In this document: one piece after another, positions 1 to 55,825 of the stretch
Layout: each line of letters starts with the position of its first letter
Numbering within the stretch: position 1 is the first letter of the stretch
The notes under the pieces: generated by a model
What the model saw: the letters and a program-made list of their open reading frames with translations, nothing else
Told to the model about the DNA's origin: nothing
Database searches by the model: none
Translations under genes and position numbers: made by a program
From: Dehalococcoidia bacterium
Lineage (GTDB): Bacteria > Chloroflexota > Dehalococcoidia > Bin125
Direction of reading: 5' to 3'
Assembly: GCA_965237475.1 (NCBI GenBank)
Contig: OZ250140.1
Location: 2,597,877-2,661,876 of the forward strand
Length of the DNA stretch: 64,000 bases

Positions 1-344
1 AGCTCGAGGGCGGCGAGCCGAAGACCTCCTGGGAGATCATGGAGGCGATCTATGGCGACACGATCGACAAGCGCCTGCGTCGGGCTGCGGACGGGAACGT
101 GCAGGCGCACCTGAAGTCGATGGTGAAGTCGGGCGTGGTGCGCCAGTCGCGCGGTGTGCGCAGGACGCGGCGTGCGTCAACCGTCGAGCGCGAGCGCGGC
201 AAGCAGCGCGAGCGCGACGCGGTGATCCGCAAAGCGAAGCGGTTCGAGCGTGACAAGCAACGCCGCCAAATCGCCCGCCAGGAGTCCGCGCCGACAGAGG
301 TTTGGAGCCGGGCGCCGAGCTATCGGCTCAGATCAAAGAGCTAA
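1..344 (+). CDS. C-terminal fragment of a hypothetical protein; the ORF runs in from upstream of the window and has a Lys/Arg-rich tail
   Basis: Open frame from base 3 with no in-window start; translation ...LEGGEPKTSWEIMEAIYGD...; no recognisable family. Confidence 0.3.
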   Translation, partial: LEGGEPKTSWEIMEAIYGDTIDKRLRRAADGNVQAHLKSMVKSGVVRQSRGVRRTRRASTVERERGKQRERDAVIRKAKRFERDKQRRQIARQESAPTEVWSRAPSYRLRSKS

Positions 345-450
345 GCGCGCGCGCTCGGCGCTCGCGTCGTGGCGAGGGCGCGCTCGGGCGCGGAGCGGAC
401 CATCGCTTACCCTCCACTGCGACACCAGTGATTAGCGCAGGAGGTTCAGC

Positions 451-1542: not shown

Positions 1543-1559
1543 AGCGAGCGGAGGACGAG

Positions 1560-2654
1560 ATGGATTACGGGCTCTGCGTCCCGACCTATATCGACATGTG
1601 GCGCGAGGTGGTCGCGGCTGAGGAGGCCGGCTTCACGCACGCCTGGTTCCCCGATTCGCAGCTGATCTGGTCGGACACCTACGCCGCGATGGCGCTGGCG
1701 GCCGAACGCACGTCGACGATCAAGCTGGGCACGCTGGTCTCGATCCCGAGCAACCGGATCGCGCCGGTGACGGCTTCGGCGATCGCGACGATCAACAAGC
1801 TGGCGCCGGGGCGCGTGATCCTGGCGCTGGGCACGGGCTACACGGGCCGTAACACGATGGGGCTGCCGTCCTACCCGGTGGCCAAGTTCCGCGAGTACTC
1901 GCAGCAGGTCAAGGGGCTGCTGGCGGGTGAGGACGTGCTGTTCAGCGACGATGTCACCGGCGCCGAGCGCTGGATCCGTCTGATCCATCCCAACCACGAG
2001 GACTTCATTAACATCACGGACCCGATCCCGCTCTATCTCGCCGCCAACGGGCCCAGGGCGATGGGGGTGGTGGGCGAGCTTGGCGACGGCTGGGTGACGG
2101 CGGGCGGCGGTCCGGCTGTCGCCGCGGGCTTCCCGATCATCGAGCAGGGCGCGGCCAGTGTCGGACGAGCCTACGAGAAGCCCTACACCGTCTCGCTTGA
2201 CGGCGCCTGCGTGCTGCGCGACGGCGAGACGATCAGCTCGCCGCGCGTGGTCCAGCGCGTCGGGCCCTGGGCGGTGGTCGCGGCGCATACGCTCTGGGAG
2301 ATGTCGCACGGGCGCTGGGGCTCGCACCTGCCGGCGAGCGACGCGGACACCGCGGGCCGCTACCACCAGTACATCAGCGAGTACGCCAAGGCGCGCGGGC
2401 GACCGACCGACCGCCTCTATCTCGATGTCCACGAGGGGCACTATTCGTACCTCAAGGAGGGCGAGGAGCAGTTCGTTGATCCCGACCGGGTCCGGCACGG
2501 GTATATCGGCAGCGGCCCGGAGATCATCGAGAAGGTCGAGGCGGCCGAGGCCCACGGCATCAACCACATCGCGCTGGCGGCGCACAGTCCCGCCGGCGCG
2601 CGCGAGCTGATCGCCGACTTCTCGCGCGAGGTGATTGCGAAGACCACGGCCTGA
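1560..2654 (+). CDS. LLM-class F420/flavin-dependent oxidoreductase, tandem paralog of the preceding gene
   Basis: 364-aa ORF, roughly 65% identical at protein level to 451..1542 with the same motifs; 18-bp spacing suggests an operon. Confidence 0.75.
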   Translation: MDYGLCVPTYIDMWREVVAAEEAGFTHAWFPDSQLIWSDTYAAMALAAERTSTIKLGTLVSIPSNRIAPVTASAIATINKLAPGRVILALGTGYTGRNTMGLPSYPVAKFREYSQQVKGLLAGEDVLFSDDVTGAERWIRLIHPNHEDFINITDPIPLYLAANGPRAMGVVGELGDGWVTAGGGPAVAAGFPIIEQGAASVGRAYEKPYTVSLDGACVLRDGETISSPRVVQRVGPWAVVAAHTLWEMSHGRWGSHLPASDADTAGRYHQYISEYAKARGRPTDRLYLDVHEGHYSYLKEGEEQFVDPDRVRHGYIGSGPEIIEKVEAAEAHGINHIALAAHSPAGARELIADFSREVIAKTTA

Positions 2655-2720
2655 CCCTCGCAGGGGAAGAACGTCTCCCAATCGACGACGAGTCCGGCGT
2701 CCGGGGAGCCGGAGGTCGAT

Positions 2721-3356
2721 TTGATGGAACCGCCGCTGACGTTTGACGGGCCGGAGTTCGGGGTGCGCGACCGGGTGCTCGTGCTCACGCACGGGGCGGG
2801 GTCTTCCTCCAGCCATCCGTCGCTGGCGGAGCTTGCGCGGCTGATTGGGGAGCGCGGGGTATCGGTGGCGCGGTTCGACTTTCCCTACATGCGCCGGGCC
2901 GCGCGGGCGGGCCGCCGGGCCTGGCCGCCCGACGACGAGGATGTTCTGACCAGCACCTGGATCGGGGCGATTCGGCAACTGCTGCCGCCGAAGCGGTTGG
3001 TGATCGGTGGCCGCTCGCTGGGCGGGCGGGTTGCTTCGATCGTGGCCGACGCCGCGGAGGTCGCGGGGCTGGTCTGCGTGAGCTATCCGTTTCATCCGCC
3101 GCGCCGCGCTGGGCCGGTACGCACGGCGCACCTGCGCAACATCGCGACGCCGACGCTGATCGTGCAGGGCGAGCGGGACCCGTACGGCTCGCGCGAGGAG
3201 GTGTCGGGCTACAATCTCTCGCCGAACATTCGGGTGCACTGGATCGCCGATGGCGACCACGGGCTGACGCCGCGCAAACGCTCGGGCGTGACCGAGCAGG
3301 GCAACCTGGTGAGCGCGGCGGACGCGATCGCGGAGTTTGTCGGGGGGCTGAGCTAG
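2721..3356 (+). CDS. Alpha/beta-hydrolase fold protein (KANL3/Tex30-like predicted hydrolase)
   Basis: 211 aa; nucleophile elbow GGRSLGG; C-terminal Asp/His (IADGDHG). Confidence 0.55.
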   Translation: MMEPPLTFDGPEFGVRDRVLVLTHGAGSSSSHPSLAELARLIGERGVSVARFDFPYMRRAARAGRRAWPPDDEDVLTSTWIGAIRQLLPPKRLVIGGRSLGGRVASIVADAAEVAGLVCVSYPFHPPRRAGPVRTAHLRNIATPTLIVQGERDPYGSREEVSGYNLSPNIRVHWIADGDHGLTPRKRSGVTEQGNLVSAADAIAEFVGGLS

Positions 3357-3357
3357 G

Positions 3358-3785
3358 CATCCTCTGAACAGGTCGGATGCCATCTCCCCCCGCGGAGCGG
3401 GGGGAGATGTCACGGAGTGACAGGGGGGGGGGCGAGCCCGCTCGCCCACATACAGCTGCGCAGGTGGGTCGGGACCGAAGCCCCCCTCTGCCCCCTGCCT
3501 GCGCAGGGGCAGGCTTCGGCATCTCCTCCCGCCGAGCGGGGGGAGAAGGGATTCGAGTTGTTCCGTGGATTCCGAGGAACGCTCCAAAGGACACCATCTC
3601 CCCCCGCTCTGCGGGGGGAGATGTCACGGAGTGACAGAGGGGGGCTGCCGCGCGTAATGCCGGCTGACCGCGACGCACTCCCCCTCTGCCTTCGGCATCT
3701 CCCCCTCGGGGGGCGATATTGGAAGGGGATTGGATCCCGCTGACCACTCGATGTGGTGAGGGGGTCCGACGTGTTCGGAGGATTC
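3358..3785. repeat. Cluster of palindromic REP/MITE-like elements (TCTCCCCCCGC-GAGC-GGGGGGAGA hairpins, GTCACGGAGTGACAG, a degenerate TCAATG-loop hairpin)
   Basis: The same modules recur at 5725-6655, 30275-30480, 42690-42866 and 58765-58990; each hairpin is an inverted repeat visible directly in the sequence. Confidence 0.8.
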
Positions 3786-4331
3786 CTACGTGCGCCAGAC
3801 GACGTGGTTGGGGGAGCGTTGGGCGGGGGGGATGCGGACGCCTTTGGGGGCGTAGCCGAGGTAGATATAGCCGACGATCCGGTCCTGCTGGCCGATGCCG
3901 AACCAGCGCTTGGCGGCGCTTGAGAGCGCGAGCGCGCCGGTGCTCCACTTGGCGGCGAGGCCGTGGGCGTGGGCGGCGAGCAGCAGATTTTGGGTCGCGC
4001 AGCAGCAGGCGGCGTAGTCCTCGAGGTCGCGCACCGGGTCGTCGGGCGAGGCGGTCTGAGTGACGGCGACGAACAGCGGGGCGCGCTTCAGCTTGCTGCG
4101 CGGGTCCTTCGCGGGGCTCGCGCCGGCTGCTTCGAGCTCGGCCCAGACGGCGTCGGCGAGGGCGTCGCGGGCGTCGCCCTGCACGACGTGGAAGCGCCAC
4201 GGCTCGGTGTGCTTGTGATTGGGCGCCCAGACCGCGCTGTCGATCAGCTCCTCGACCAGTCCGCGCGGGACCGGATCATCGCGAAACGCGCCGATCGTGC
4301 GACGCTCGCGGATTGCCTCAACGACATCCAT
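3786..4331 (-). CDS. Nitroreductase-family flavoprotein
   Basis: Starts MDVVEAIRERRTIGAFRDDPVP; ...AVWAPNHKHTEPWRFHVV...; the ORF-track start at 4499 was trimmed to the internal ATG at 4331. Confidence 0.65.
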   Translation of the reverse strand: MDVVEAIRERRTIGAFRDDPVPRGLVEELIDSAVWAPNHKHTEPWRFHVVQGDARDALADAVWAELEAAGASPAKDPRSKLKRAPLFVAVTQTASPDDPVRDLEDYAACCCATQNLLLAAHAHGLAAKWSTGALALSSAAKRWFGIGQQDRIVGYIYLGYAPKGVRIPPAQRSPNHVVWRT

Positions 4332-4389
4332 CACGCACCTCCGGGCGGCAGAACGGGTCTGCAGCCGGCCAAGCCATAGGATCACCGCC

Positions 4390-5679
4390 ATGTTACGCGC
4401 TGGCGCACGACAGACGTTCGCCGCTTTCGGCGTGCCGGCGTTCCGGTTGCACTGGGCGTGCACGGTCGCGGCGTTCATCTCGTTCATGATGTCGTTCACG
4501 GTTCAGAGCGTGATCACGTATGAGCTGACTGGTTCGAACGCGAGCGTGGCGTTCGTGGCGGCGGGCAGCGGCGTGGCATGGTTCTTCGTGGGGCCGATCG
4601 CCGGGGCGCTGGCGGATCGGCTGCCGAAGCGGCGGCTGCTGGTCATCGCTCAGACGCTGATCGCGATCAACTTCGGCGTGCTCGCGTTCCTGGTGTTGAG
4701 CGATGACATCAGTGTGGCGTGGCTGACCGCGAGTAGCTTTCTGCTGGGCAGCTGCTTTGCGTTCACGGGGCCGACCCGGCGGGCGTACGTGGCCGACCTG
4801 GTGCCGAGCCGCCTGGTCGGCAATGCGGTGGTGTTGCTGCAGTCGGCGCTGAACTTCCCGCAGATCGTTGGGCCGGCGATCGCCGCGGGGCTGATCAGCA
4901 TCGCCTTTGTCGGCGCGGGCGGCGCCTACGTCTTCATGTTCGCCGTGCTCGCGCTGACCATCCTCTCGCTCGGGCTGATGCCGCAGGGGCCGCCGCGCAA
5001 CGTCATGCGGCGCGGCGTCTACCGCGAGATCGTGCTCGGGCTGCGCTATGCGGCGTCGCATTCGCGGATTCGGCTGTTGCTGGGCTCGCTGCTGCTGATC
5101 TCGGTGGCGGGCGGGTCGTATCAGATTCTGCTGCCAGGGTTGCTGGTGAACGCGCTGGGGGTGGAATCGGTGCAGCTTGGGCTGCTGCAGGCGTTCGCGG
5201 GAATTGGCTCGTTCACGGTGGGCGTGGCGGTTGCGGGGGTGGTGGGGACGCGCTGGTCGGGGCGGGTGATGTACGTCATGGCGGTGGGGTTCGGGCTCGG
5301 GGTGCTGCTGCTGGGGATTACGCCGAGCGTCGTGGTCGCGTTTCCGATCATGTTTCTGCTGGGGGCGGGCTTTAGCGCGTTTCAGGCGATCAATACGGCG
5401 GAGGTGTTGATTCAGGCGGATCCCGAGTACCACGGACGGCTGACTTCACTCACGTTTGTGCCGTTCGGGGTGCAGAGCATGGCGGGGCTGGCGTTCGGCA
5501 ATCTGGCGGACGGGATCGGGGAGCGCTCGATGCTGGTGATCATGGGCATCTCCGCGATGGTGATCAGCGTGGTGTCGGTTGCGCTCTACGAGCGTATCCG
5601 GGCCCCCGCCCGCACCACCCTGGCGCTCGCTCCCGACGAGCCGGGGGTCGCTCCGCCACCGTCGTCGCGCGCAGAGTGA
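4390..5679 (+). CDS. MFS transporter
   Basis: About 12 predicted hydrophobic helices; GPIAGALADRLPKRR loop motif between TM2 and TM3; transcribed divergently from the nitroreductase. Confidence 0.65.
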   Translation: MLRAGARQTFAAFGVPAFRLHWACTVAAFISFMMSFTVQSVITYELTGSNASVAFVAAGSGVAWFFVGPIAGALADRLPKRRLLVIAQTLIAINFGVLAFLVLSDDISVAWLTASSFLLGSCFAFTGPTRRAYVADLVPSRLVGNAVVLLQSALNFPQIVGPAIAAGLISIAFVGAGGAYVFMFAVLALTILSLGLMPQGPPRNVMRRGVYREIVLGLRYAASHSRIRLLLGSLLLISVAGGSYQILLPGLLVNALGVESVQLGLLQAFAGIGSFTVGVAVAGVVGTRWSGRVMYVMAVGFGLGVLLLGITPSVVVAFPIMFLLGAGFSAFQAINTAEVLIQADPEYHGRLTSLTFVPFGVQSMAGLAFGNLADGIGERSMLVIMGISAMVISVVSVALYERIRAPARTTLALAPDEPGVAPPPSSRAE

Positions 5680-5724
5680 TGGGGGCGGCCGCGAGCATTT
5701 TGGTGCGAATTCACATCTGTTAGC

Positions 5725-6655
5725 ACGGATCAGGCCCCCCTCTGTCCCTACGGGACATCTCCCCCCGCGGAGCGGGGGGAGAGGGGATCCGACGTGCTCT
5801 GCCCTGCCCCGCGGGAGGAGAAGGGGAACCGGATTCCGCTGACCACTCAATGTGGTCAGCGGGGGGAGAGGGGATCCGACTTGTTCAGAGGATTCCTGGC
5901 AGAGGCTGTTGCAGAAACCCCATGTGCGTCATTCCCGCGCAGGCGGGAATCCATGCGACCACCCAAGATGTGCGAGCGGCTGCGTGGTGTTGACGGCCTT
6001 CCGGAAGGGCCGAGCCGCGATGGCGAGGATCCAGCGCCGTCGGCCGTTCGGGGCGCCAACGGGCATTGGTCGGCTCGCCTGGATTCCTGCCTGCGCAGGA
6101 ATGACGGAGGAGGGCGCAGGAATGACGGAGGAGGGCGCAGGAATGACGGAGGAGGGCGCAGGAATGACGGAGGAGGGCGCAGGAATGGCGGAGAAGGACG
6201 CACGGAATGACGCGAGAGGACGCACCGCACCACGGAGGAGGACTCACGGCGCCACTGAGGAGGACGCGCGGGGATGATGGGAGAGGGCGCGGGAGTGACG
6301 GAACACGGGGTTCTGAGACAGTCTCTGCACGGCGGGGGAGATGGCGAAGGTAGAGGGGGTCGGCCGCGACTCAGCGGCGTGGCTGTATCTGGTCGGACAG
6401 GATCAGGCCCCCCTCTGTCCCTACGGGACATCTCCCCCCGCGGAGCGGGGGGAGAGGGGATCCGACGTGCTCTGCCCTGTCCTGCGGGAGGAGAAGGGGA
6501 TCCGGATTCCGCTGACCACTCAATGTGGTCAGCGGGGGGAGAGGGGATCCGACCTGCTCTGCCCTGCCCCGCGGGAGGAGAAGGGGATCCGGATTCCGCT
6601 GACCACTCAATGTGGTCAGCGGGGGGAGAGGGGATCCGACTTCTTTGGCAGCCGG
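5725..6655. repeat. Large composite intergenic repeat region: an 88-bp minisatellite (1.7 copies at 5731-5880, 2.6 copies at 6404-6640) flanking REP family B (GTCATTCCCGCGCAGGCGGGAATCC) and a 21-bp tandem repeat
   Basis: CGGGGGGAGAGGGGATCCGAC recurs at 5771, 5859, 6442, 6532 and 6620 with 88-90 bp spacing, and the intervening sequence is nearly identical in every unit; the ORFs predicted here are spurious (they translate to ...SVIPAQAGIQ...). Confidence 0.8.
6104..6215. repeat. 21-bp tandem repeat GCAGGAATGACGGAGGAGGGC, about 5 copies (REP family B derived)
   Basis: Directly visible: gcaggaatgacggaggagggc x4, then diverged copies. Confidence 0.85.
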
Positions 6656-8608
6656 CTAGATGTAGCGGGCGAACCAGGTGGTGAGGCGGTCGTAGTACTC
6701 CTGGCGGAGGCTGGGGTGTGCGACGCGGAGCATCAGGTGGGAACCGCCGGGGAAGCGGACGAACTCGACGGGCTTGCCGCGGTCGCGGAGGGCGACGAAA
6801 TACTCCTCGCTCTGGGTGATGGGAACGCGATGGTCGGCGTCGCCGTGCAGCAGCAGGACCCGCGCCGTCACGTTCGCCGCGTAGCTGATCGGCGAACGTT
6901 CGCGGTACCACTCGCGGGCCTCGTCGGGGCGGCCGCTCCACTGATAGCGGCCCCACGACGCCCCGATGTCGGACGTGCCGTACATCGACTCCAGATTGAC
7001 CACGGGCGCGCCCACGACCGCGGCCTTGAAGCGGTCGGTGTGCCCGATCAGCCACGACGACATGTAACCGCCGTAGGAGTAGCCGTGTACGCCCAGGCGC
7101 TCGGCGTCGACGTAGGGGCGCGCGCAGACGTGGTCGAGCGCGGCGAGCAGGTCGAGCGAGTCCTCGCCGCCCCAATCGCCGATCACGGCGTGGGTGAAGT
7201 CGGAGCCAAACGTCGACGAGCCGCGCGGGTTGACGAACAGCACCAGGAAGCCGGCGCCGGCGATGATCTGGTGCAGCGCCGTGAAGCCCTCGCCAAACCA
7301 GCCGTGCGGGCCGCCGTGAATCTCGAGCACCAGCGGGTACCGCTGCGAGGCATCGAAGCCGGGCGGGAAGATCAGGCCGCAGGGAATCGGCACGCCCTCG
7401 CGCACGATCGTGAACCACTCGACCGCGCCGGGCTCGTGCGCTTCGAGGTAATCGGCGTTGACCGAGGTCAGGCATGTCGCCGCGGCGCCGGCGGTCTGCG
7501 TGACCAGCTCGCCCGGCTGGCCGGGGTTGGTCACGATCGCCGCGATGCGGGATCCGTCCGCCGAGATATCGACGCCGTTGATTAGCTCAGCCTCCGCGCG
7601 AATGACCTCCGCCTCGCCGTGGCCGTCGGGTGAGACGCGCCACACGCCGGAGCGCCCGCAGGCGTCGGCGGCGAAGCTGATGCCGGCCTCGCTCCAGCTA
7701 ATCGGCGGCGGCGAGGCGAGCGGGAAGAAGCCGCTCTGCGGGGTCAGGCCGCCGTCGGTGAGCCGCGTGCGGCGTCCCGAGTAGCGGTGGATGCGGGTGA
7801 GATAGGCCTGCTGGGGCTCGGCGACCTCGGTGATCGCGACCGCGAGCTCACGTCCGTCGGGCGACCACGCCGCCCGTCCGGCGGATTGGGCCCCGGGGGT
7901 GAGCCGCTCGATGACGCCGCCGCGGGCGGGCATCACGCAAAGTTCGCTGCCGAACGGGCGGCGGCGGTCGCGCTCCACCGAGCGGTCGGTGGCGAACGCG
8001 ATCCAGCGGCCGTCGGGCGAGATGACGGGGTGCGCGTTGTTGTAGGGACCGCTGGTGAGCTGAGTGGCGGCGCCGCTGCCCGCGTCGATGCTGAAGAGGT
8101 GATGCCAGGCGCCGACGCGATAGCCGAGCGTGTCGCCGCGGTAGTAGACCTCGCGCAGCACGGTGGTGCGCGGCGCGCCGTCGTCCTCGATGAGACGCTG
8201 GGGGTCGACGTCGACGACCGCGATCAGGCCGCGGCCGTCGGGCAGCCAGACGCAGGATTCCAGCTGATATGGCAGGTCGGTCAGTCGCTGGGCCTCGCCG
8301 CCGGTCGTCGGCAGGAGCCAGAGCTGGCGCGACGCGTCGGCGTCGGCTGCGCGCAGAAACGCGAGCTGCGAGCCATCGGGCGACCAGGCCGGCGAGCCGT
8401 CGCGCGGGCCGGCGGTCAGACGGCGGTCGTCGCCGCCGGCGAACGCGACGGCGCGGATGTGGGACTCGCTGCTCATCGTCTCGCGCGAAACCTGGGCGTG
8501 GACGTAGGCGACCGTTTCGCCGTCGGGCGAGAGGGCGGGGCTGCTCACGGATGGCAGGTCGAAGACGATCTCCGAGCCAATCGGCTCGCGCGCTGTCGGG
8601 CTGGTCAT
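6656..8608 (-). CDS. S9-family serine peptidase (acylaminoacyl-peptidase / prolyl-oligopeptidase type): N-terminal TolB-like beta-propeller plus C-terminal alpha/beta hydrolase
   Basis: Repeated SPDG... propeller motifs; catalytic GYSYGGYM; HGDADHRVP; start trimmed to the ATG at 8608, preceded by GGAG. Confidence 0.75.
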   Translation of the reverse strand: MTSPTAREPIGSEIVFDLPSVSSPALSPDGETVAYVHAQVSRETMSSESHIRAVAFAGGDDRRLTAGPRDGSPAWSPDGSQLAFLRAADADASRQLWLLPTTGGEAQRLTDLPYQLESCVWLPDGRGLIAVVDVDPQRLIEDDGAPRTTVLREVYYRGDTLGYRVGAWHHLFSIDAGSGAATQLTSGPYNNAHPVISPDGRWIAFATDRSVERDRRRPFGSELCVMPARGGVIERLTPGAQSAGRAAWSPDGRELAVAITEVAEPQQAYLTRIHRYSGRRTRLTDGGLTPQSGFFPLASPPPISWSEAGISFAADACGRSGVWRVSPDGHGEAEVIRAEAELINGVDISADGSRIAAIVTNPGQPGELVTQTAGAAATCLTSVNADYLEAHEPGAVEWFTIVREGVPIPCGLIFPPGFDASQRYPLVLEIHGGPHGWFGEGFTALHQIIAGAGFLVLFVNPRGSSTFGSDFTHAVIGDWGGEDSLDLLAALDHVCARPYVDAERLGVHGYSYGGYMSSWLIGHTDRFKAAVVGAPVVNLESMYGTSDIGASWGRYQWSGRPDEAREWYRERSPISYAANVTARVLLLHGDADHRVPITQSEEYFVALRDRGKPVEFVRFPGGSHLMLRVAHPSLRQEYYDRLTTWFARYI

Positions 8609-42866: not shown

Positions 42867-44058
42867 TGGCAGGCTGCTGAAGAAGGGCCCCATGCACCGC
42901 GCTTCCCCGATCTTGGTGCGAGGAGTCACAACTCGACCAGCTCGGCGAGTGGATTCCCTAGTCTCACAGACGAACCGCGACAGATGATTGAGGTGAGGCC
43001 ATGGGAGCGCGCTACTCGCAGCTGGATCTGGAGGAGCGATGTGCGGTTGCCCGGTTACAGGCCGAGGGGCGCTCGGTCCGGCAGATCGCTGCAGCTCTGG
43101 ATCGCGCGCCATCGACGGTTGCTCGGGAGCTGAAACGCAACGCGGGGCGCGATGGCTACCGTCCGGGCTACGCCCAGGAGCAGGCCCGGGCGCGGCGCTG
43201 GCGCGGCTCGCGGCTGGAGCGCGACGCGGGCCTGCGCGAGCGGGTGCTGAGCGAGCTGGCGCGCGGGCTCTCGCCGCAGCAGGTCTCGGGCCGGCTGGCG
43301 CGCGAGGCCGGCCGGGCGGTGATCTCGCACGAGAGCATCTACCGCTTCATCTACGCCCAGATCTCACGCGCCAAGCCGAGCCGTCAGGGCGGTTGGCGCC
43401 ACTATCTGCCGCGGGCCAAGGCGAAGCGCGGCTGGCGCGGTCGCAAGGGCGGCAGCTCGGTTGACCACATTCAGCTGCGGCGGCCCTTGAGCGAGCGTCC
43501 GGCCGCCGCCGCCGACCGGCTCCAGGCCGGCCACTGGGAGGCCGACCTGATGCTCTTCGGACGCTCCGGTCCGGCCCTCTTGATGCTGCACGAGCGCCAC
43601 TCGCGGCTGCTGCTGGCGCTGCCGGTCGCGAGCAAGGCGGCGGCCCCGGTCGCGCGCCTGCTGGTCGCGCTGCTGCGCGGCTGGCCGCCGGCCCTGCGCC
43701 GCACGGTCAGCTTCGACAACGGCAACGAGTTCGCCCAGCACCGCGCGCTGCACCGGCTCGGGGTCGAGACGTTCTTCTGCGACGCCTACGCGCCCTGGCA
43801 GAAGGGCGGGATCGAGAACGCGATCGGCCGCCTGCGCCGGGTCCTGCCGCGCCGCCTCGAGCTCGCCCAACTCAGCATCGAACGGCTCGTGCAGGTGCTG
43901 CAGCTGTACAACAACACCCCGCGCAAGTGCCTCGACTACCTCACCCCGGCCGAAGTCTTCGGCCAGCAACTGGCGCACTTGCAATGTGAACCCACCTTCC
44001 CGCCTGCGCGGGAATGACGGAATTGGCGGGTTGCCCGACTTCTCCAGCAGCCTCCTAG
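42866..44058 (+). mobile_element. IS30-family insertion sequence (~1.19 kb) with imperfect terminal inverted repeats
   Basis: Left end GGCAGGCTGCTGAAGAAGGGCC (42869-42890) versus the reverse complement of the right end GCTAGGAGGCTGCTGGAGAAGTCG (44036-44059); single transposase ORF. Confidence 0.7.
43001..44017 (+). CDS. IS30-family DDE transposase
   Basis: N-terminal HTH (LDLEERCAVARLQAEGRSVRQIAAALDRAPSTVARELKRN); catalytic region with HWEADLM. Confidence 0.8.
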   Translation: MGARYSQLDLEERCAVARLQAEGRSVRQIAAALDRAPSTVARELKRNAGRDGYRPGYAQEQARARRWRGSRLERDAGLRERVLSELARGLSPQQVSGRLAREAGRAVISHESIYRFIYAQISRAKPSRQGGWRHYLPRAKAKRGWRGRKGGSSVDHIQLRRPLSERPAAAADRLQAGHWEADLMLFGRSGPALLMLHERHSRLLLALPVASKAAAPVARLLVALLRGWPPALRRTVSFDNGNEFAQHRALHRLGVETFFCDAYAPWQKGGIENAIGRLRRVLPRRLELAQLSIERLVQVLQLYNNTPRKCLDYLTPAEVFGQQLAHLQCEPTFPPARE

Positions 44059-50302: not shown

Positions 50303-50929
50303 ATGGCAGACCCCCAACGACTCGAGATGACCCTGGCGGAAGCGATGTACTCGATGCGCGCGATCCGACGGGTGCGGCCCGACCCGATTGCACCGGAGGA
50401 CGTGGAGCTGATGCTCGACGCCGCCCGCCAGGCGCCGAACGGCGGCAATGCGCAGCCCTGGCATTTCCTGGTCGTGCAGGACCCCGACCAGATTCGCCGC
50501 TTTGCTCCGCTCTACCGCGAGGCCTGGTGGGCCAAGCGCGCCGACGTCGGGATCGTCGACGGCGACGAGCGTCTGCAGACGCCGGTGATGCGATCGGCGC
50601 GTCGGCTCGCTGATGAGATCGGCCAGGCGCCGCTGCTGGTCTTCCTCTGCGCCACCGCGCAGGGCGCCGGAGCTGCGGCCTCAGTGATTCCGTCGGTGCA
50701 GAATCTGCTGCTGGCGGGGCGGTCACTGGGCATCGGCGGCAACATCACGACGCTGCACCCGACGGTGGATGGTCGGGTCAAGACGCTGTTCAACATCCCC
50801 GACCAGGCGCAGGTCGTGTACTGCGTGCCGATGGGCTACCCGCGAGGCCGGTTCGGCCCGCTGAACCGCAAGCCGCTGACGGAGATTGTGTCGCAGGATC
50901 GGTGGGGCGAGCGTCCGTCGTGGGCATGA
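50303..50929 (+). CDS. Nitroreductase-family protein
   Basis: AARQAPNGGNAQPWHFLVVQD; AGGAG RBS 7 bp upstream of the ATG at 50303. Confidence 0.7.
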   Translation: MADPQRLEMTLAEAMYSMRAIRRVRPDPIAPEDVELMLDAARQAPNGGNAQPWHFLVVQDPDQIRRFAPLYREAWWAKRADVGIVDGDERLQTPVMRSARRLADEIGQAPLLVFLCATAQGAGAAASVIPSVQNLLLAGRSLGIGGNITTLHPTVDGRVKTLFNIPDQAQVVYCVPMGYPRGRFGPLNRKPLTEIVSQDRWGERPSWA

Positions 50930-51049
50930 ATTTCGTCGACCGCCGATCGGACACCACTGTTGCTCGCGTGGCCGCGAACAGCTCGAGGAATGGCTATCGT
51001 CGCATGTGTGCTTGCCCATTCCTGCGGGGCTAGAAGGGATCCGGCGTCG

Positions 51050-51721
51050 ATGGACGCGCTCGAGCAGCACGATCAGTCGCTGGTTGACGCGGCATTGATG
51101 TTGGTGCTGTGGCACCGTGCGGCTCCCCAGGGTGGCGGGGATTTTCACGACGAGAATGACGTGGGGGACCGCCTCCGTCTGATGAAGCTCGCGTTTCTCG
51201 CCGCACACCGGTTCAACGAGCAACAGATCGCCGGACTGGGGCTCACGTTCTATCGCTGGACGTGGGGTCCGCTGTCGAATCAGGTCTACGCGGTCTGGGA
51301 GCTGCTTGAACGAGCTGGCGCTCTTCACGAAGAGGAGCAATGGCTGATTACTGAGTCTGGTGCATCGTTGTCCGATGCATTTTACGGAGAGGTGCTCCAG
51401 GCTGAAAGCAATCGAGGAGCGCGACAGGCATTCGATGACATTGCCGCGCGGTGGCGTGATGAGCCGCTCACGTCAGCGATTATGAAGCACGTCTACGGTC
51501 TTGACGTGCGGCCGGCCGGAAGCAGCCTCCCGGTCACCGTGGCGCGCGTTCCACTGGGGGACACCATCATTACGCCCCTGGAGGCGTCGATCGACTCCCG
51601 CGGCTTCGAAGTTGATCCTGCGTGGCTCGAGACCTTGGCGCTCAGTTTCTCACCAAGTGATGTCGCGTCTATTGCAGCGGCCGAGGAAGACTTTCGTGCA
51701 ACACGGTTCCACGTGGCCTGA
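51050..51721 (+). CDS. Hypothetical protein, possibly a Panacea/SocA-like antitoxin partner of the downstream RelE/ParE-like gene
   Basis: MKLAFLAAHRFNEQQ...YRWTWGPLSNQVY resembles DUF4065-type antitoxins; its 3' end overlaps the next ORF. Confidence 0.35.
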   Translation: MDALEQHDQSLVDAALMLVLWHRAAPQGGGDFHDENDVGDRLRLMKLAFLAAHRFNEQQIAGLGLTFYRWTWGPLSNQVYAVWELLERAGALHEEEQWLITESGASLSDAFYGEVLQAESNRGARQAFDDIAARWRDEPLTSAIMKHVYGLDVRPAGSSLPVTVARVPLGDTIITPLEASIDSRGFEVDPAWLETLALSFSPSDVASIAAAEEDFRATRFHVA

Positions 51722-52082
51722 CGCTTCGAACTGGACCGTGCGATATTCGGACCAGTTCCTGAAGCAGGCACGAAGCCGTCGCTATCGCTCGCTAGCGACG
51801 GTTCTCCGTTCGCGGCTCGAGGCGTTGTTCGAGGATCCGTTCAACGCCGCAAGCGCTGAGCGCCTGCGGCACGAGTTCAGAGGCCTGCGGAGCGCGCGGA
51901 TTGATGCCCGACTCCGCCTGATCTACCGCCTATGCGGCGAATGCCGCGATAGCGGCCACGCGCAGTTCCGGCCGATCGAGTGTTGCTGGAGCGGCGACAC
52001 CGAGGACTGCACCATCAACCTCCTCTGCATCAGCGATCACTACCGCAACATGCCGACACGCTTCGATTTCTCGGCCACATGA
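51692..52082 (+). CDS. RelE/ParE-superfamily toxin-like protein
   Basis: LRHEFRGLRSARIDARLRLIYRL ... CISDHYRNM fits the RelE/ParE core; overlaps the upstream gene; start codon uncertain (GTG). Confidence 0.45.
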
Positions 52083-52289
52083 ATGCGTCCCATCCGTCGT
52101 TCCTCAATGAGTTGATCTCGTCCGTACTCAACCCGGGTTGATCGTCGCTGGATTGCGGTGTCGTCACGAGTCGCCGCTGCAACGCTCCGAACTTGGCCCG
52201 CGTCTATCTGCCGACGCAACACACCCAACGGTTGAGGCGAGCTCCCGCCGGAGGGTGTCTCGGAAGTCCGTATTTCCGATCAGATCGTC

Positions 52290-52415
52290 GATGCCGCGAA
52301 GCGTGGAACGCGGGCCCACCAGATGGGGCGGATCGATTCCCGCTTGCGCGGGAATGACGGGCGAGGGCGCGGCAATGACGGGAGAGCGGCTTCTGAGACA
52401 GGCTCCTACGGAATC
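52290..52415. repeat. REP family B-related repeat (GCGCGGGAATGACGG ... TTCTGAGACAGG)
   Basis: Similar to 6280-6330 and to the 3' end of the IS30 element (44003-44020). Confidence 0.6.
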
Positions 52416-53515
52416 AGCATTGAGCGCGAGACGTTGGTGTCGCGCTCGTGCCACTCGCTGTCCTCGAAGGCCTGGTTGACGTCGGCCAGCGGGTAGGTGT
52501 GCGAGACGATCCGGTCGTAGGGGATGTCGCGCTGGTGCTTCTGCAGCATGTTCATCATCAGCGGCAGCAGGTGCGGGCGGTACATGACCGAGCCCATGAT
52601 CTTCTTGCCGCTGAGCAGCGTGCTGGGGTCAATCGCGACCGTGCGGCCGCGCACGATGTCGCCGATCTCGACGAAGGTGCCGCCGTTGGCGAGGAAATCG
52701 ATGCCTTCGGCGAGCAGCTCGGCGCGGCCGACCAGCTCCATCACGATGTTCGCGCCGCGGCCCTCGGTCAGGTCCCAGACGGCTTCGCGGCGCGTCGCCG
52801 GGGTGTTGAACTCCTCGATGTTGATCGTGTGGTCGGCGCCGAACTGCTCGGCGAGGGCCAGCCGCTGCGGCAGCCGATCGAGCACGATCACCTTGTGCGC
52901 GCCCATATCCTTGGCCATCGCGGTGGCGTTGAGCCCGAGGCCGCCCGCGCCCTGAATCACGACGAAGTCGTTCTCCTTGCAGCCGGCGCGCATCAGGCCC
53001 TCGGTGACGGTGCCCATCGCGCAGTTGACGAAGCCCAGAATCTCGTCGGGCAGGTCGTCGGGCACCTTGAACACCGGATGGTTGGGCTGCAGGTAGTAGT
53101 AGTCGGCGTAGGTGCCGGTGAAATATGGCGGCACGCCCGCCTCGCGCGACCAGGCGCTGCGGTCGGAGCACCAGTTCCACTCGCCGCGCGAGCACTGGTA
53201 GCAGCGCCCGCAGGGGGTGATCGCCGAGTACATCACGCGGTCGCCGAGCTCAAGCGGGCGGCCCAACGAGTCTGAGCTGACGCCATCGCCCAACGAGTGG
53301 ATCACGCCGGTGCCCTCGTGGCCCATGACGCGCCCGCCCTCGGGCAGCGGGTTGGCGATCATGTCGCCGCGCCAGGTGTGCAGGTCAGAGCCGCAGACCC
53401 CCGCCTGGGTGATCCGCAGCACGATCCCGCCCGGCTCAGGGTCGGGGACGGGGTACTCCTCGATCACAAACGGCTGCTGGTATTCCTTGACGACAACGAC
53501 ACGTCCCGTGGCCAT
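52406..53515 (-). CDS. Zinc-dependent alcohol dehydrogenase-family oxidoreductase (MDR)
   Basis: GVCGSDLHTWRGD...GHEGTGVI...; GxGxxG (VIQGAGGLG). Confidence 0.75.
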   Translation of the reverse strand: MATGRVVVVKEYQQPFVIEEYPVPDPEPGGIVLRITQAGVCGSDLHTWRGDMIANPLPEGGRVMGHEGTGVIHSLGDGVSSDSLGRPLELGDRVMYSAITPCGRCYQCSRGEWNWCSDRSAWSREAGVPPYFTGTYADYYYLQPNHPVFKVPDDLPDEILGFVNCAMGTVTEGLMRAGCKENDFVVIQGAGGLGLNATAMAKDMGAHKVIVLDRLPQRLALAEQFGADHTINIEEFNTPATRREAVWDLTEGRGANIVMELVGRAELLAEGIDFLANGGTFVEIGDIVRGRTVAIDPSTLLSGKKIMGSVMYRPHLLPLMMNMLQKHQRDIPYDRIVSHTYPLADVNQAFEDSEWHERDTNVSRSMLIP

Positions 53516-53600
53516 GGCGATCTCCCTCGCTAGTGAGTTTGGACAGTGCGAGTCTAGGGAATTGCGTCAGCCAAGGGCGTGACTTCGGAGCTGAGAGGGA

Positions 53601-54464
53601 ATGCCTTACCTTGGCGGCGAGCGGAGGTCGACGATGGAACAGCGGCTCACTGTTCGGATCGCTGGCCCAGGCGTGCCGGTGGGGAAGATCGGGCTCAAAG
53701 ATCTACAGCGAATCGTGCATCCGCTTGAGCAGGCGGTGCGGGCGCTGCTCCCCGCAAACGAGCCGCCGCCGCCAACAGGCGGCCGTCCGCGTAAGCCGAC
53801 TGTACGGTTGTTGCTCTCGGGAATCGAGCCGGGTTCGGCGGTAGCGAACTTGGAGCTTGACGCGGATCTGGCCCCTACGTTGGACAGTTTTGCTCCCGAT
53901 CCCCTGGGACGACTTGTGGCCGGGGCGGCGGCTGGTGGCGGGAAGCTACCCGCCGACTCACGTCGTCATTTGGAGCGGATGGCTCGCAGCCTTCCTCGTG
54001 GCTTCGAATATGTGGAGTTGACGCTGCCAGACCGAGCGATGTCGGCGCGAATCTATCGTCATGATCCTGAAGAAGCACTGAGCGAAACGGAAGCAGTTCT
54101 CACGATCTCAGGCCGCTTGGTCTCCATCGACTTTCGAACTGGAACAGCGCGTCTACAGATTCAGTCAGGCGGCAAGCGAAAAGTGGGAACGCAGCTGGTA
54201 CCGCTGCGATTCCCAGATGAGTTGGCGAACGACATGCAGCGCTGCGCCCGCCAGCAAGTGTCCGTCCATGGTGTCGCAACGATGACCGCGGCCCGCGTCG
54301 TCGAGTCACTCGCGGTGCAGCGCATTCATGTGGACCTTGACGATCGCCGTGGACTCTGGGCTCCCAAGCGATTCAGATGGCCTAGCGCTGACGAACGCCT
54401 CGATAACGTGGATATGGACGAGTTCTTACGAACGTCACGCGATGATGGCGAGGACGACGTGTGA
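53601..54464 (+). CDS. Hypothetical protein (287 aa), translationally coupled to the downstream PIN-domain gene
   Basis: No recognisable family; GTGA start/stop overlap with 54461..54904. Confidence 0.4.
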   Translation: MPYLGGERRSTMEQRLTVRIAGPGVPVGKIGLKDLQRIVHPLEQAVRALLPANEPPPPTGGRPRKPTVRLLLSGIEPGSAVANLELDADLAPTLDSFAPDPLGRLVAGAAAGGGKLPADSRRHLERMARSLPRGFEYVELTLPDRAMSARIYRHDPEEALSETEAVLTISGRLVSIDFRTGTARLQIQSGGKRKVGTQLVPLRFPDELANDMQRCARQQVSVHGVATMTAARVVESLAVQRIHVDLDDRRGLWAPKRFRWPSADERLDNVDMDEFLRTSRDDGEDDV

Positions 54465-54904
54465 TCTTCGGAGCGCATGTTGACATCGTGGTCGACACGA
54501 ACATCGTCGTTTCGCTGCTGTCGAGTCATCCGGATGAGATCGCTCGCGCGGAGCTGTACCGATCACACATCGAGGGCAGGGCGATCGCGATCTCGTTCCA
54601 GACCGAAGCGGAACTGATGGTGCAGCGTGAGGCGCAGGGCTGGGACGGCACAAAACTCATGACACAAATGAGCAACTATGAGATAGTACCACTGTCAGAT
54701 GACTTGCGTGGCTGTTACATCACGTTGCGGTCCGAGGCGATCCGCAGAAACAGGCGCAATGAGGGACCGTTGTTGGGCCCCGCGGACGGCTGGATCGCAG
54801 CCGCCGCGCTGATGCTGGATTGCCCCCTCGTTACACACGATCGCAAACTCTCCAAGAGCCCACTGATCGTTGCCATCACCGAACTGGACGCTCAGGGACC
54901 GTAG
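54461..54904 (+). CDS. PIN-domain nuclease (VapC-like toxin)
   Basis: VVDTNIVVS...TE.EL...DGWIAAAALMLDCPLVTHD carries the PIN acidic residues. Confidence 0.65.
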   Translation: MIFGAHVDIVVDTNIVVSLLSSHPDEIARAELYRSHIEGRAIAISFQTEAELMVQREAQGWDGTKLMTQMSNYEIVPLSDDLRGCYITLRSEAIRRNRRNEGPLLGPADGWIAAAALMLDCPLVTHDRKLSKSPLIVAITELDAQGP

Positions 54905-54922
54905 CCTTCTGAAGTACAATCG

Positions 54923-55825
54923 CTACGCGCCGCGGAGGCGGGGGTCGAAGGCGTCGCGGAGGGCGTCGCCGATGATGTTGAAGCTGAAGACGGTGAGGAA
55001 GATCGCGAGGCCGGGCCAGACCGAGAGCCAGGGCTGTTCGATCATGTGGATTCTGGCCTCCGCGCCGAGCATGAAGCCCCACGAGGCCGCCGGCGGCTGA
55101 ATCCCGTAGCCGAGGAACGAGACGGACGCCTCGATCAGGATCGCGATGCCCAGGTAGGCCGTCGCGATCACCAGGATCGGCGGCAACGCATTGGGCAGGA
55201 TGTGGCGCACGATCACTCTGGGCGTGGTCGCCCCGATCGAGCGCGCCGCTTCGATGTAGGGCTGTGAGCCGACCTGGATCGCGGCGGCGCGGGAGATGCG
55301 GATGCCCCCGCCAAGCAGCGCGATCGCGATCACCACGATCAGCAGCGAGATGCTGGTGCCGAGAAACGCGGTGAGCGAAATCACGATGATCAGGCCCGGG
55401 AAGGCCATCAGCATGTCGACCACGCGCTGCACCAACACGTCGAACCAGCCGCCGACCGCGCCGCTGATCAGCCCGATCGCCGAGGCGACGACCACTGCCA
55501 GGCCGACAGAAGCGACGCTGATCCCCAGCGAGGCGCGCCCGCCGTAGAGGATGCGGGTGAAGACATCGCGGCCCAGCGCGTCGGTGCCCATCCAATAGGT
55601 CGCATTGGGTCCCTGCAGACGGTCGTACGGCGCGATGGCTCGGGGCTCGTATGGCGCGATCAGTTCGGCCAGCCCGGAGCCCAGGCCGATCGCGATCAGC
55701 ACGAGCGTGACCAGGCAGGGGAAGGGATAGCGTCGCAGCATCCGTCCGAAGCCGCGCAGGAGGCGCGTGGCTTCGAACGCGGGCGGTTCAGCCGCCGACG
55801 CGGATGCGTGGGTCGAGGAAGCCAT
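54923..55825 (-). CDS. ABC peptide-transporter permease (DppC/OppC-like)
   Basis: EAA-type loop motif ...YIEAARSIGATTPRVIVRHILPNA...; start ambiguous (the alternative ATG at 55741 would remove the overlap with the upstream permease). Confidence 0.75.
   Translation of the reverse strand: MASSTHASASAAEPPAFEATRLLRGFGRMLRRYPFPCLVTLVLIAIGLGSGLAELIAPYEPRAIAPYDRLQGPNATYWMGTDALGRDVFTRILYGGRASLGISVASVGLAVVVASAIGLISGAVGGWFDVLVQRVVDMLMAFPGLIIVISLTAFLGTSISLLIVVIAIALLGGGIRISRAAAIQVGSQPYIEAARSIGATTPRVIVRHILPNALPPILVIATAYLGIAILIEASVSFLGYGIQPPAASWGFMLGAEARIHMIEQPWLSVWPGLAIFLTVFSFNIIGDALRDAFDPRLRGA

What the first reader, a model, noticed from the sequence alone, without database searches (positions are those of the whole stretch)
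53601..54904. PIN-domain toxin translationally coupled (GTGA overlap) to an unusually large 287-aa upstream protein of unknown family
VapC-type PIN toxins are normally preceded by 70-90-aa VapB antitoxins. Here the coupled upstream gene is three times larger and has no recognisable DNA-binding antitoxin fold. It may be a fused antitoxin-plus-sensor, a new antitoxin class, or a functional partner such as a phage-defence sensor with a PIN effector.
Basis: inference. Interest (0 to 1): 0.5.

Follow-up and report, generated by a model that had tools for sequence, protein, structure and literature searches.

The report
PIN toxin with novel OB-fold partner
A VapC-type PIN ribonuclease gene is translationally coupled to a 276-aa protein of an undescribed family (ferredoxin-like domain, OB fold, conserved C-terminal tail) that sits directly upstream of a PIN gene at almost every related locus sampled, so it is most likely a new, large kind of antitoxin or regulatory partner for PIN toxins.

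Summary

A belongs to a superfamily of about 218 clusters at 50% identity. Of 29 homolog genes sampled down to about 20% identity, 27 are followed immediately by a PIN gene, usually with a 4-bp overlap. One is followed by a HicA-like gene, and one contig ends too soon to tell. A and PIN co-diverge (Spearman 0.88). The close family is confined to Dehalococcoidia/Chloroflexota MAGs, is duplicated in tandem in one genome, and lies beside MmeI-type R-M genes in several. The only database link is a weak match to PADLOC's untested candidate PDC-M32A.

Best reading: a non-canonical type II toxin-antitoxin or defence-type module in which the tail of A neutralises the PIN and the OB body replaces the usual DNA-binding domain. 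Function is inferred, not shown. I class it as a new variant of a known kind, of moderate interest.

The parts
53516..53633 (+). Intergenic/promoter region between the divergent ADH gene (52406..53515, minus strand) and gene A. It contains the SD GGAGG at 53623-53627.
   Evidence: ADH_N/ADH_zinc_N. No sigma-70-like site or operator-type palindrome was found. The GGAGG lies 6 nt before the ATG at 53634.
53634..54464 (+). Gene A: a 276-aa partner protein of an undescribed family. The ORF caller extends it to 53601.
   Evidence: Homologs are 275-277 aa and start at the equivalent Met. No Pfam, NCBIfam, PHROG or PDB sequence match. Weak PADLOC PDC-M32A match, E=4.7e-5.
53634..54068 (+). A residues 1-145: N-terminal alpha/beta domain (beta-alpha-beta-beta-alpha-alpha-beta-beta). 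Residues 1-38 are its most conserved part.
54087..54338 (+). A residues 152-235: OB-fold domain.
54339..54461 (+). A residues 236-276: conserved C-terminal tail (DDRRxLWAPKRFRWP...NVDMxEFLRTS...EDDV). This is the proposed PIN-binding and neutralising segment.
   Evidence: Conservation is 0.74 although pLDDT is only 45-62 when modelled alone. The tail motif differs between superfamily branches, while all branches keep a terminal acidic amphipathic helix. Its function is inferred.
54450..54454 (+). GAGGA Shine-Dalgarno for the PIN gene, embedded in the acidic C-terminal codons of A.
   Evidence: The equivalent GAGGA/GAGGG/GAAGA sits at the same place in most T1 homologs.
54461..54464 (+). GTGA overlap: the PIN start (GTG) overlaps the stop of A (TGA), which gives translational coupling.
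   Evidence: The same ATGA/GTGA 4-bp overlap is found in 14 of the 16 pairs tabulated; the other two overlap by 1 bp.
54461..54904 (+). VapC-type PIN-domain ribonuclease gene (147 aa).
   Evidence: Pfam PIN E=1.4e-10. NCBIfam VapC models match below their cut-offs. Best PDB match is 6nkl VapC, E=1e-3. D12, E51, D109 and D127 are conserved in all partners.

Best explanation
This is a two-gene, translationally coupled toxin-antitoxin-type module.

Shown:
- The downstream gene encodes a catalytically intact VapC-type PIN ribonuclease.
- The upstream gene encodes a 276-aa protein of an undescribed family. It is built from a ferredoxin/RRM-like N-domain, an OB fold, and a conserved C-terminal tail that is disordered when modelled alone.
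- Across a superfamily of about 218 clusters, this protein is almost always followed directly by a PIN gene.

Inferred mechanism:
- A is made first and in excess through translational coupling.
- Its C-terminal tail folds onto the PIN and occludes the active-site groove, as the C-terminal tails of VapB antitoxins do.
- The large OB-containing body takes the place of the usual small DNA-binding domain. It may act as a nucleic-acid-binding regulatory or sensing module (own promoter or mRNA, or foreign ssDNA/RNA), or as an oligomerisation platform.
- Loss, degradation or titration of A would free the PIN to cleave tRNA or rRNA and arrest translation.

Whether the cell uses this for phage defence, for stabilising genomic regions, or for something else is open.
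For: - PIN identity and an intact active site.
- A 4-bp GTGA overlap plus an SD inside gene A, with no intervening promoter-like site.
- Antitoxin-first gene order.
- Pair conservation: 27 of 29 A-homolog genes, in 28 loci down to about 20% identity, are followed immediately by a PIN gene.
- A and PIN co-diverge: Spearman 0.88 over 136 comparisons. A usually diverges faster than PIN, in 74% of comparisons; in L007, A is 66% identical to the window protein but PIN is 95%.
- The tail is among the most conserved segments, yet it is modelled as disordered in the monomer.
- Tail motifs differ between branches while the body is shared.
- One distant branch member, with a different and longer C-terminus, is followed by a HicA-like gene instead of a PIN.
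- The module behaves like an accessory cassette. It occurs in 10 of 185,579 species genomes, all Dehalococcoidia/Chloroflexota MAGs. It is tandemly duplicated in L003. It sits in a GC dip, about 0.60 against 0.66-0.70 in the flanks. It lies beside another RelE-type pair and, elsewhere, beside MmeI-type R-M genes.
- PIN toxins paired with diverse non-canonical antitoxins are an established phenomenon (PMC10440598).
Against: - There is no experimental or structural evidence that A binds or inhibits the PIN. A complex could not be modelled with the tools available.
- A is large and well folded, with two domains of nucleic-acid-binding type. This fits an RNA-recruiting (activating) subunit as well as it fits an inhibitor.
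- No operator-like palindrome was found upstream, and no recognisable DNA-binding antitoxin domain.
- The tail has no sequence similarity to solved antitoxins.
- Part of the tail's acidic end may be conserved because it encodes the PIN's SD.
- The module sits at conserved syntenic sites among metabolic genes in related genomes, so it is not obviously mobile at present.
- No relatives were found on sequenced plasmids or phages, or in viral contigs.
- The HicA call is below threshold: 21.6 bits against a cut-off of 27.
Confidence: 0.55

Rival explanations
1. Sensor-effector anti-phage (abortive infection) system. The OB/ferredoxin-like body of A detects a phage cue, such as ssDNA, RNA or an SSB-like protein. 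Detection releases or activates the PIN effector, which shuts down translation in the infected cell. This overlaps with the best explanation, because A would still hold the PIN inactive. The difference is that defence is claimed as the biological role and the OB domain as the trigger sensor.
For: - Weak but repeated similarity of A and its distant relatives to PADLOC PDC-M32A. E is 4.7e-5 for the window protein and reaches 1.3e-9 in relatives. There are further weak hits to PDC-M63B and PDC-M02B.
- PDC candidates are genes found embedded in BREX, DISARM and type I R-M loci.
- MmeI/Eco57I-type R-M genes lie directly upstream of the pair in L003/L013, L004 and L014. A type IIG R-M gene and a STAND NTPase lie within a few kb in L030. 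An M78-peptidase/HTH gene is adjacent in L003.
- The OB fold resembles ssDNA- and RNA-binding OB domains.
- PIN effectors are known in validated defence systems such as HEC-03.
Against: - In the window and its closest relatives the neighbours are metabolic or transport genes, not defence genes.
- The PIN has no PADLOC match, so the PDC-M32B partner is absent.
- PDC-M32 itself is untested.
- The R-M association is seen in a minority of loci and at one syntenic site, so it may reflect shared ancestry and not repeated co-localisation.
- No statistical enrichment test was possible.
Confidence: 0.2
2. Two-subunit ribonuclease. A is not an inhibitor but a substrate-recognition subunit. Its RRM-like and OB domains bind a specific RNA (for example a tRNA anticodon stem-loop) and present it to the PIN catalytic subunit, while the tail merely anchors the two proteins together.
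For: - Both folded domains of A are of types that commonly bind single-stranded nucleic acid. Among the OB matches are the anticodon-binding domains of LysRS, AspRS and AsnRS.
- The body is conserved across the whole superfamily, while canonical antitoxins need only a short tail.
- PIN nucleases fused or paired with RNA-binding modules are well known in other contexts (Rrp44, Nob1, PhoH2; my own knowledge, not tested here).
Against: - The patchy, accessory distribution (10 of 185,579 species genomes for the close family), the tandem duplication and the GC dip argue against a housekeeping RNA-processing enzyme.
- A diverges faster than the PIN, which is typical of antitoxins.
- Antitoxin-first order with coupling is the classical TA layout.
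- The fold matches are generic and do not identify a nucleic-acid-binding surface.
Confidence: 0.15
3. The two genes are functionally unrelated neighbours. The upstream protein would be an ordinary metabolic or structural protein that happens to overlap a solitary PIN gene.
For: The flanking genes in the window are metabolic: ADH, nitroreductase and an ABC transporter.
Against: The pair is conserved with overlap in 27 of 29 cases, across about 20-95% identity and across unrelated genomic contexts, with strong co-divergence. A matches no enzyme family.
Confidence: 0.03

Closest known systems
VapBC type II toxin-antitoxin modules (VapC PIN toxin + VapB antitoxin)
   Same: The toxin is a VapC-type PIN domain of about 145 aa with the four acidic active-site residues. 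The partner gene is upstream and translationally coupled by a 4-bp overlap. The partner has a conserved, intrinsically disordered C-terminal tail that could cover the PIN active site, as VapB tails do.
   Different: The partner is 276 aa instead of about 70-90 aa. It lacks any AbrB, RHH, Phd/YefM or HTH DNA-binding domain and instead has a ferredoxin/RRM-like domain plus an OB fold. No operator palindrome was found. Neutralisation has not been demonstrated.
Non-canonical / hyperpromiscuous antitoxins of the NetFlax network (e.g. PanA/Panacea, RHH_6, DUF2680 partners of PIN toxins; PMC10440598)
   Same: PIN toxins there are also paired with structurally unrelated, sometimes large, antitoxin domains. 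Here, too, a shared body carries branch-specific C-terminal tails, and at least one branch appears to pair with a different toxin type (HicA-like).
   Different: No Panacea (DUF4065) or other NetFlax-named domain is detected in A. An OB-fold antitoxin is not mentioned in that paper (text search). Partner swapping is rare here: 27 of 29 partners are PIN, so the family is not hyperpromiscuous on present evidence.
PADLOC phage-defence candidate PDC-M32 (protein A), from genes embedded in BREX/DISARM/type I R-M loci (bioRxiv 10.1101/2024.01.29.577857)
   Same: A and its distant relatives give weak to moderate matches to the PDC-M32A profile over the N-domain plus OB region, with E from 4.7e-5 to 1.3e-9. 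Some loci lie beside R-M genes.
   Different: The match is partial, covering profile positions 61-240 of 375, and low-scoring (20.6 bits). The PIN matches no PADLOC model, so PDC-M32B is absent. The window locus is not embedded in a defence system. PDC-M32 is itself uncharacterised.
Single-stranded nucleic-acid-binding OB-fold proteins (SSB, RPA, PriB, class IIb aaRS anticodon-binding domains)
   Different: Sequence identity is only 10-20%, with no family-level sequence match. The domain is embedded in a larger protein coupled to a toxin. Nucleic-acid binding has not been shown.
HEC-03 defence system (ABC ATPase + VapC-like PIN effector)
   Same: A large non-VapB partner protein is encoded with a VapC-like PIN. 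This is precedent that PIN domains serve as effectors controlled by large sensor proteins.
   Different: The HEC-03 partner is an ABC ATPase. A has no NTPase motifs or fold.

Membership tests
PIN domain / VapC toxin (PF01850) | Significant match to the PIN profile above the curated threshold | tested here: met
   PF01850 scores 42.3 bits against a cut-off of 23.6, E=1.4e-10, covering 116 of 120 profile positions.
PIN domain / VapC toxin (PF01850) | Four conserved acidic active-site residues | tested here: met
   D12, E51, D109 and D127 align with the catalytic positions of VapC 6nkl. They are conserved in all 17 partner PINs, except that the fourth is N in two distant members.
PIN domain / VapC toxin (PF01850) | NCBIfam equivalog-level VapC assignment | tested here: not met
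   NF047863 scores 31.4 bits against a cut-off of 140, and NF047959 scores 13.9 against 80. It is a PIN/VapC-type domain, but not a member of those specific equivalogs.
PIN domain / VapC toxin (PF01850) | Ribonuclease activity and growth inhibition | not testable with these tools
   Requires expression and biochemistry.
VapBC type II TA module | Partner gene immediately upstream, co-transcribed and translationally coupled | tested here: met
   GTGA overlap at 54461-54464, GAGGA SD inside gene A, and no promoter-like site between the genes.
VapBC type II TA module | Small (about 70-90 aa) antitoxin with an N-terminal AbrB, RHH, Phd/YefM or HTH DNA-binding domain | tested here: not met
   A is 276 aa. 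It gives no Pfam, NCBIfam or PDB sequence match. The model shows a ferredoxin-like domain plus an OB fold.
VapBC type II TA module | C-terminal region of the antitoxin binds and occludes the toxin active site | tested here: inconclusive
   The conserved tail is disordered in the monomer model, which is compatible with this feature. No complex model was possible, and the tail has no similarity to solved antitoxins.
VapBC type II TA module | Autoregulation through operator repeats in the promoter | tested here: inconclusive
   Only a trivial 9-nt palindrome at the ADH start was found. There are no repeats in 53516-53633.
PADLOC PDC-M32 | Protein A matches the PDC-M32A profile | tested here: inconclusive
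   E=4.7e-5, 20.6 bits, residues 67-233 against profile positions 61-240 of 375. Relatives reach 1.3e-9. This indicates remote homology, not clear membership.
PADLOC PDC-M32 | Partner matches PDC-M32B | tested here: not met
   The PIN, and the PINs of four other loci, give no PADLOC hit at E<=1.
PADLOC PDC-M32 | Embedded in or adjacent to a BREX, DISARM or type I R-M locus | tested here: not met
   The window neighbours are a nitroreductase, an ADH and ABC transporter genes. Type IIG R-M genes are adjacent only in some other genomes.
OB-fold ssDNA/RNA-binding proteins | Five-stranded OB barrel | tested here: met
OB-fold ssDNA/RNA-binding proteins | Nucleic-acid binding | not testable with these tools
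   Requires EMSA or a similar assay.
Panacea (PanA, DUF4065) antitoxins | DUF4065/Panacea domain | tested here: not met
   No Pfam hit in A or in 120 superfamily members.

The most novel reading that the evidence does not exclude
The ferredoxin-like plus OB body of A would be a dedicated nucleic-acid sensor, detecting phage ssDNA or RNA, or damaged or uncharged tRNA. Ligand binding would be transmitted to an exchangeable C-terminal toxin-holding tail. That would define a new and widespread family of sensor-antitoxins (about 218 clusters at 50% identity, in Chloroflexota, in other uncultivated lineages and possibly in archaea). These proteins would arm PIN toxins, and occasionally HicA-type toxins, as abortive-infection effectors, and would give the untested PADLOC candidate PDC-M32 a mechanism.
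Probability: 0.2. Interest if true: 0.75.

Novelty: new variant of a known kind. Interest (0 to 1): 0.5.

Why it matters
PIN/VapC modules are the most abundant toxin-antitoxin family, and their antitoxins are thought of as small DNA-binding proteins with a toxin-binding tail. Here the partner is a conserved, unannotated family of about 276 aa with an OB fold. It is tied to PIN genes across hundreds of sequence clusters, mostly in uncultivated lineages.

If the partner neutralises the PIN, it adds a new structural class of antitoxin. It would also give a natural system for asking what a nucleic-acid-binding body contributes: sensing, autoregulation at the RNA level, or substrate targeting. It would give the first mechanistic handle on the PADLOC candidate PDC-M32.

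On the practical side, it shows that annotation pipelines currently leave these PIN genes looking like orphans beside a "hypothetical protein".

Tried and rejected
- **Sequence-family searches of A.** Pfam, NCBIfam, PHROGs, and PDB searches by single sequence and by a 120-sequence profile found nothing.
- **DUF7946/DUF7947.** These gave single weak hits only and have no literature. They stay an unverified lead.
- **AFDB Foldseek.** The library was unavailable.
- **Modelling the A-PIN complex.** This was not possible.
- **Broad-alignment word-index search.** It mostly re-found the close family because of the candidate cap. It added no fusions and no names.
- **HicB-like idea for the C-terminus of P0137.** By eye it looked HicB-like, but PDB and NCBIfam gave no support. 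I dropped it as a claim.
- **"Panacea-like" idea for the window's 223-aa neighbour.** Again by eye only. There is no Pfam domain in it or its homologs, and only a weak YefM-like C-terminus. It is unrelated to A (hhalign probability 0.3).
- **Short "OB+tail only" and "tail only" forms in LXNI/LXNJ metagenome contigs.** I rejected these as evidence of modularity, because both genes are frameshifted in those assemblies.
- **Operator repeats and promoter/terminator scans.** Uninformative.
- **Rfam scan of 50500-55500.** No RNA element, so no RNA antitoxin.
- **Plasmid, phage and viral-contig searches for A relatives.** All negative. The T3 alignment was too diverse to scan.
- **Tail versus solved antitoxins.** No similarity.
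Full report
**1. The observation**

The ORF listing shows a 287-aa ORF at 53601..54464 (+) and a 147-aa GTG-initiated ORF at 54461..54904 (+). The sequence reads ...GAC GTG TGA TCT..., so the PIN start GTG (54461-54463) and the upstream stop TGA (54462-54464) share the four bases GTGA.

The upstream ORF is over-called. Forty of its 45 close homologs are 275-277 aa and all begin ME(Q/R/T)RL. A GGAGG at 53623-53627 lies 6 nt before the ATG at 53634. The gene is therefore 53634..54464 (276 aa). A GAGGA at 54450-54454, inside the last codons of the upstream gene, lies 6 nt before the PIN start.

The only sigma-70-like match in 50500-55500 lies inside the PIN gene, and no terminator-like site separates the two genes.

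**2. The downstream gene**

It matches Pfam PIN (PF01850) at 42.3 bits against a cut-off of 23.6 (E=1.4e-10). It matches NCBIfam VapC models below their equivalog cut-offs. Its best solved relative is VapC 6nkl (E=1e-3). The catalytic acidic residues are all present and are conserved in every partner PIN examined: D12 (vvDTn), E51 (SFQTxxEL), D109 (aDgWIAA) and D127 (THD). It is a catalytically competent VapC-type PIN domain.

**3. The upstream protein (A)**

A matches nothing in Pfam, NCBIfam, PHROGs or the PDB by sequence. Where any public source names a member, it is "hypothetical protein". The only library hit is a weak, partial match to PADLOC PDC-M32A (E=4.7e-5, 20.6 bits). PDC-M32A is one of 145 untested candidates defined by being embedded in BREX, DISARM or type I R-M loci.

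An AlphaFold2 model from a 31-sequence alignment (mean pLDDT 73) shows three parts.

- **Residues 236-276** form a tail with one short helix and pLDDT 45-62. It is nevertheless among the most conserved segments of the family, at 0.74 mean column identity against 0.56-0.60 for the domain bodies. Invariant residues are D236, D237, R238, W242, K245, W249 and D260.

The acidic C-terminus (EDDE/EDDV) is encoded by the same GAC GAG GAC GAC bases that provide the PIN's SD. Its conservation may therefore be partly a nucleotide-level constraint.

**4. Related sequences and context**

The close family (tail class T1) was found in only 10 of 185,579 species-representative genomes, all Dehalococcoidia/Chloroflexota MAGs.

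An exhaustive profile search finds 218 representatives (50% clusters) at E <= 1e-3. Most are 270-330 aa, and many align only over positions 1-233. Their C-termini fall into at least three motif classes:
- T1: DDRxxLWxxKRFxWP...NVDMxEFL
- T2: EPFDLEAFLxxPNPKxFDP...SEPFDVDEF
- T3: FWxxxSxxELAxEQGVxP...DEFL

All classes end in an acidic amphipathic helix.

I fetched 28 related loci carrying 28 homolog genes; with the window's own pair that makes 29 A genes (some loci are near-duplicates from sister assemblies).
- 27 are followed immediately by a PIN gene.
- One is followed by a HicA-like gene. This is P0137, the relative closest to PDC-M32A. The HicA match is sub-threshold (Pfam E=2.4e-4).
- One contig ends before the partner can be seen.

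 Among the 16 intact pairs tabulated, 14 overlap by ATGA/GTGA and two by 1 bp.

A and PIN identities co-vary (Spearman 0.88, 136 comparisons). PIN is the more conserved of the two in 74% of comparisons. In the extreme case, L007, A is 66% identical to the window protein and PIN is 95%.

One genome carries two tandem copies of the pair (L003/L013).

The T1 pair occupies two syntenic sites:
- beside an ADH gene (window, L001/L008, L007, L009, L016);
- upstream of a CoA-transferase gene (L002, L003, L004, L010, L011, L014). At this site an MmeI/Eco57I-type R-M gene of about 1330 aa lies directly upstream in L003, L004 and, in part, L014. Small remnants of it persist in L010 and L011.

A T2 member, L030, lies within a few kb of a type IIG R-M gene and a STAND NTPase.

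No relative was found on sequenced plasmids, on phages or in IMG/VR contigs.

In the window, the pair sits in a GC dip of about 0.60 against flanks of 0.66-0.70. Its neighbours are a nitroreductase, an ADH and ABC transporter permeases. A second toxin-type pair lies 1.5 kb upstream.

**5. How it most likely works**

Shown: a catalytically intact PIN gene is translationally coupled to, and co-evolves with, a multi-domain partner of an undescribed family.

Inferred: A is the neutralising partner. I base this on five points.
- The gene order and coupling are those of type II TA modules.
- The tail behaves like a binding-coupled folding element, being conserved but disordered alone. It contains invariant basic and aromatic residues of the kind VapB tails use to cover the VapC active site (VapB tails are described as covering the active site in PMC10127717; the residue-level comparison rests on my own knowledge).
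- The tail changes between branches while the body is kept. A branch with a different C-terminus appears to pair with a different toxin type.
- A diverges faster than the toxin.
- The module has an accessory distribution.

The OB/ferredoxin-like body would replace the canonical DNA-binding domain, acting as regulator, sensor or oligomerisation platform. I put this reading at 0.55.

**6. Rivals**

- **Defence role (0.2).** A true sensor-effector defence role is compatible with the best explanation. Support comes from the PDC-M32A similarity and the R-M adjacency. These are weak and could reflect shared ancestry at a single locus.
- **Positive specificity subunit (0.15).** A could instead be an RNA-recruiting subunit of a two-subunit RNase. 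Both folded domains are of RNA/ssDNA-binding types. The accessory distribution and the faster evolution of A argue against it.
- **Unrelated neighbours (0.03).** This is effectively excluded by the conserved pairing.

**7. Comparison with known systems**

The module works like a VapBC module, but it fails the VapB membership test: size, DNA-binding domain and operator are all lacking.

It resembles the non-canonical PIN-antitoxin pairs catalogued by NetFlax (PMC10440598). That paper lists PanA, RHH_6, DUF2680 and other partners, but no OB-fold partner.

It is remotely related to PDC-M32A but lacks PDC-M32B and the embedded context.

I therefore class it as a new variant of a known kind: a PIN toxin-antitoxin or defence module with a new class of partner protein.

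**8. Noticed in passing**

The window's 51050..51721 gene (223 aa; the ORF caller extends it to 50960) belongs to another small unannotated family. Its C-terminus is weakly YefM-like. It overlaps a RelE/YoeB-like ORF, which matches below threshold and carries a Cys-rich insert.

A homolog of the 223-aa protein lies directly upstream of A-PIN in L001. In L016 the whole pair lies 4 kb downstream of A-PIN. The two modules therefore tend to travel together.

**9. Limits**

No complex model, no biochemistry and no statistical test of defence-island enrichment were possible. The taxonomy of the T2 and T3 branches is unknown beyond metagenome labels. The HicA partner call is sub-threshold.

Noticed in passing
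window 51050-52082 (+): A second toxin-type pair lies 1.5 kb upstream. The first gene encodes a 223-aa protein of another unannotated family (30 clusters, no Pfam domain, C-terminus weakly YefM-like at E about 0.2). It overlaps a RelE/YoeB-like ORF (TIGR02116 E=3e-4, sub-threshold) that carries a Cys-rich insert (CGECRDSGHAQFRPIECCWSGDTEDC). Like A-PIN, this is a large upstream protein plus a small RNase-type toxin, and it also sits in a GC dip.
   Followed up: partly
L001 4267-4920; L016 11175-12180: Homologs of the window's 223-aa neighbour recur next to A-PIN in other genomes. In L001 the homolog lies directly upstream of A, with no RelE-like gene. In L016 it lies 4 kb downstream of A-PIN together with its RelE-like partner. 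The two modules co-localise repeatedly.
   Followed up: partly
L003 (=L013) 1-7837; L004 984-6271; L014 2000-7226: At the CoA-transferase site, an MmeI/Eco57I-type R-M gene of about 1330 aa lies immediately upstream of A-PIN. L003 has two tandem A-PIN copies followed by an M78-peptidase/HTH gene. L014 retains only 739 aa of the R-M gene. L010 and L011 retain 32-33-aa remnants of it downstream of the PIN.
   Followed up: partly
L007 6001-7271 vs window 53634-54904: Divergence is discordant. The PIN is 95% identical to the window's PIN, but A is only 66% identical, even though the flanking ADH is 98% identical. This suggests rapid evolution or recombinational replacement of the partner gene.
   Followed up: no
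window 54441-54464 and equivalent junctions in homologs: The acidic C-terminal codons of A (GAC GAG GAC GAC ...) double as the GAGGA Shine-Dalgarno for the PIN gene. Protein-level conservation of the EDDE end may therefore be partly a nucleotide-level constraint.
   Followed up: partly
L005 2165-3524: A distant relative, closest to PDC-M32A (P0137, 362 aa, low GC of 0.44), has a longer and different C-terminus. It is overlapped by 11 bp by a 93-aa HicA-like gene instead of a PIN (Pfam HicA_toxin E=2.4e-4, below cut-off).
   Followed up: partly
L028 (=L029) 5001-6382: A divergent member (P0163, 311 aa, GC 0.43) with an overlapping PIN sits among archaeal-type genes (tRNA-Thr_ED, a geranylgeranyl-reductase-like gene). 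This hints that the superfamily extends to archaea.
   Followed up: no
window 52346-52386: A 21-bp unit (GCGCGGCAATGACGGGAGAGG) is repeated twice in tandem in the intergenic region between the RelE-like ORF and the ADH gene.
   Followed up: no
window 43001-44017 (+): An IS30-like transposase ORF (HTH_38 + rve integrase core) lies about 10 kb upstream of the locus.
   Followed up: no
L020, L021, L023, L025, L027 (LXNI/LXNJ metagenome contigs): Both the A and PIN genes are split across frames in these assemblies. This is probably sequencing or assembly frameshifts, not real short forms or pseudogenes.
   Followed up: partly
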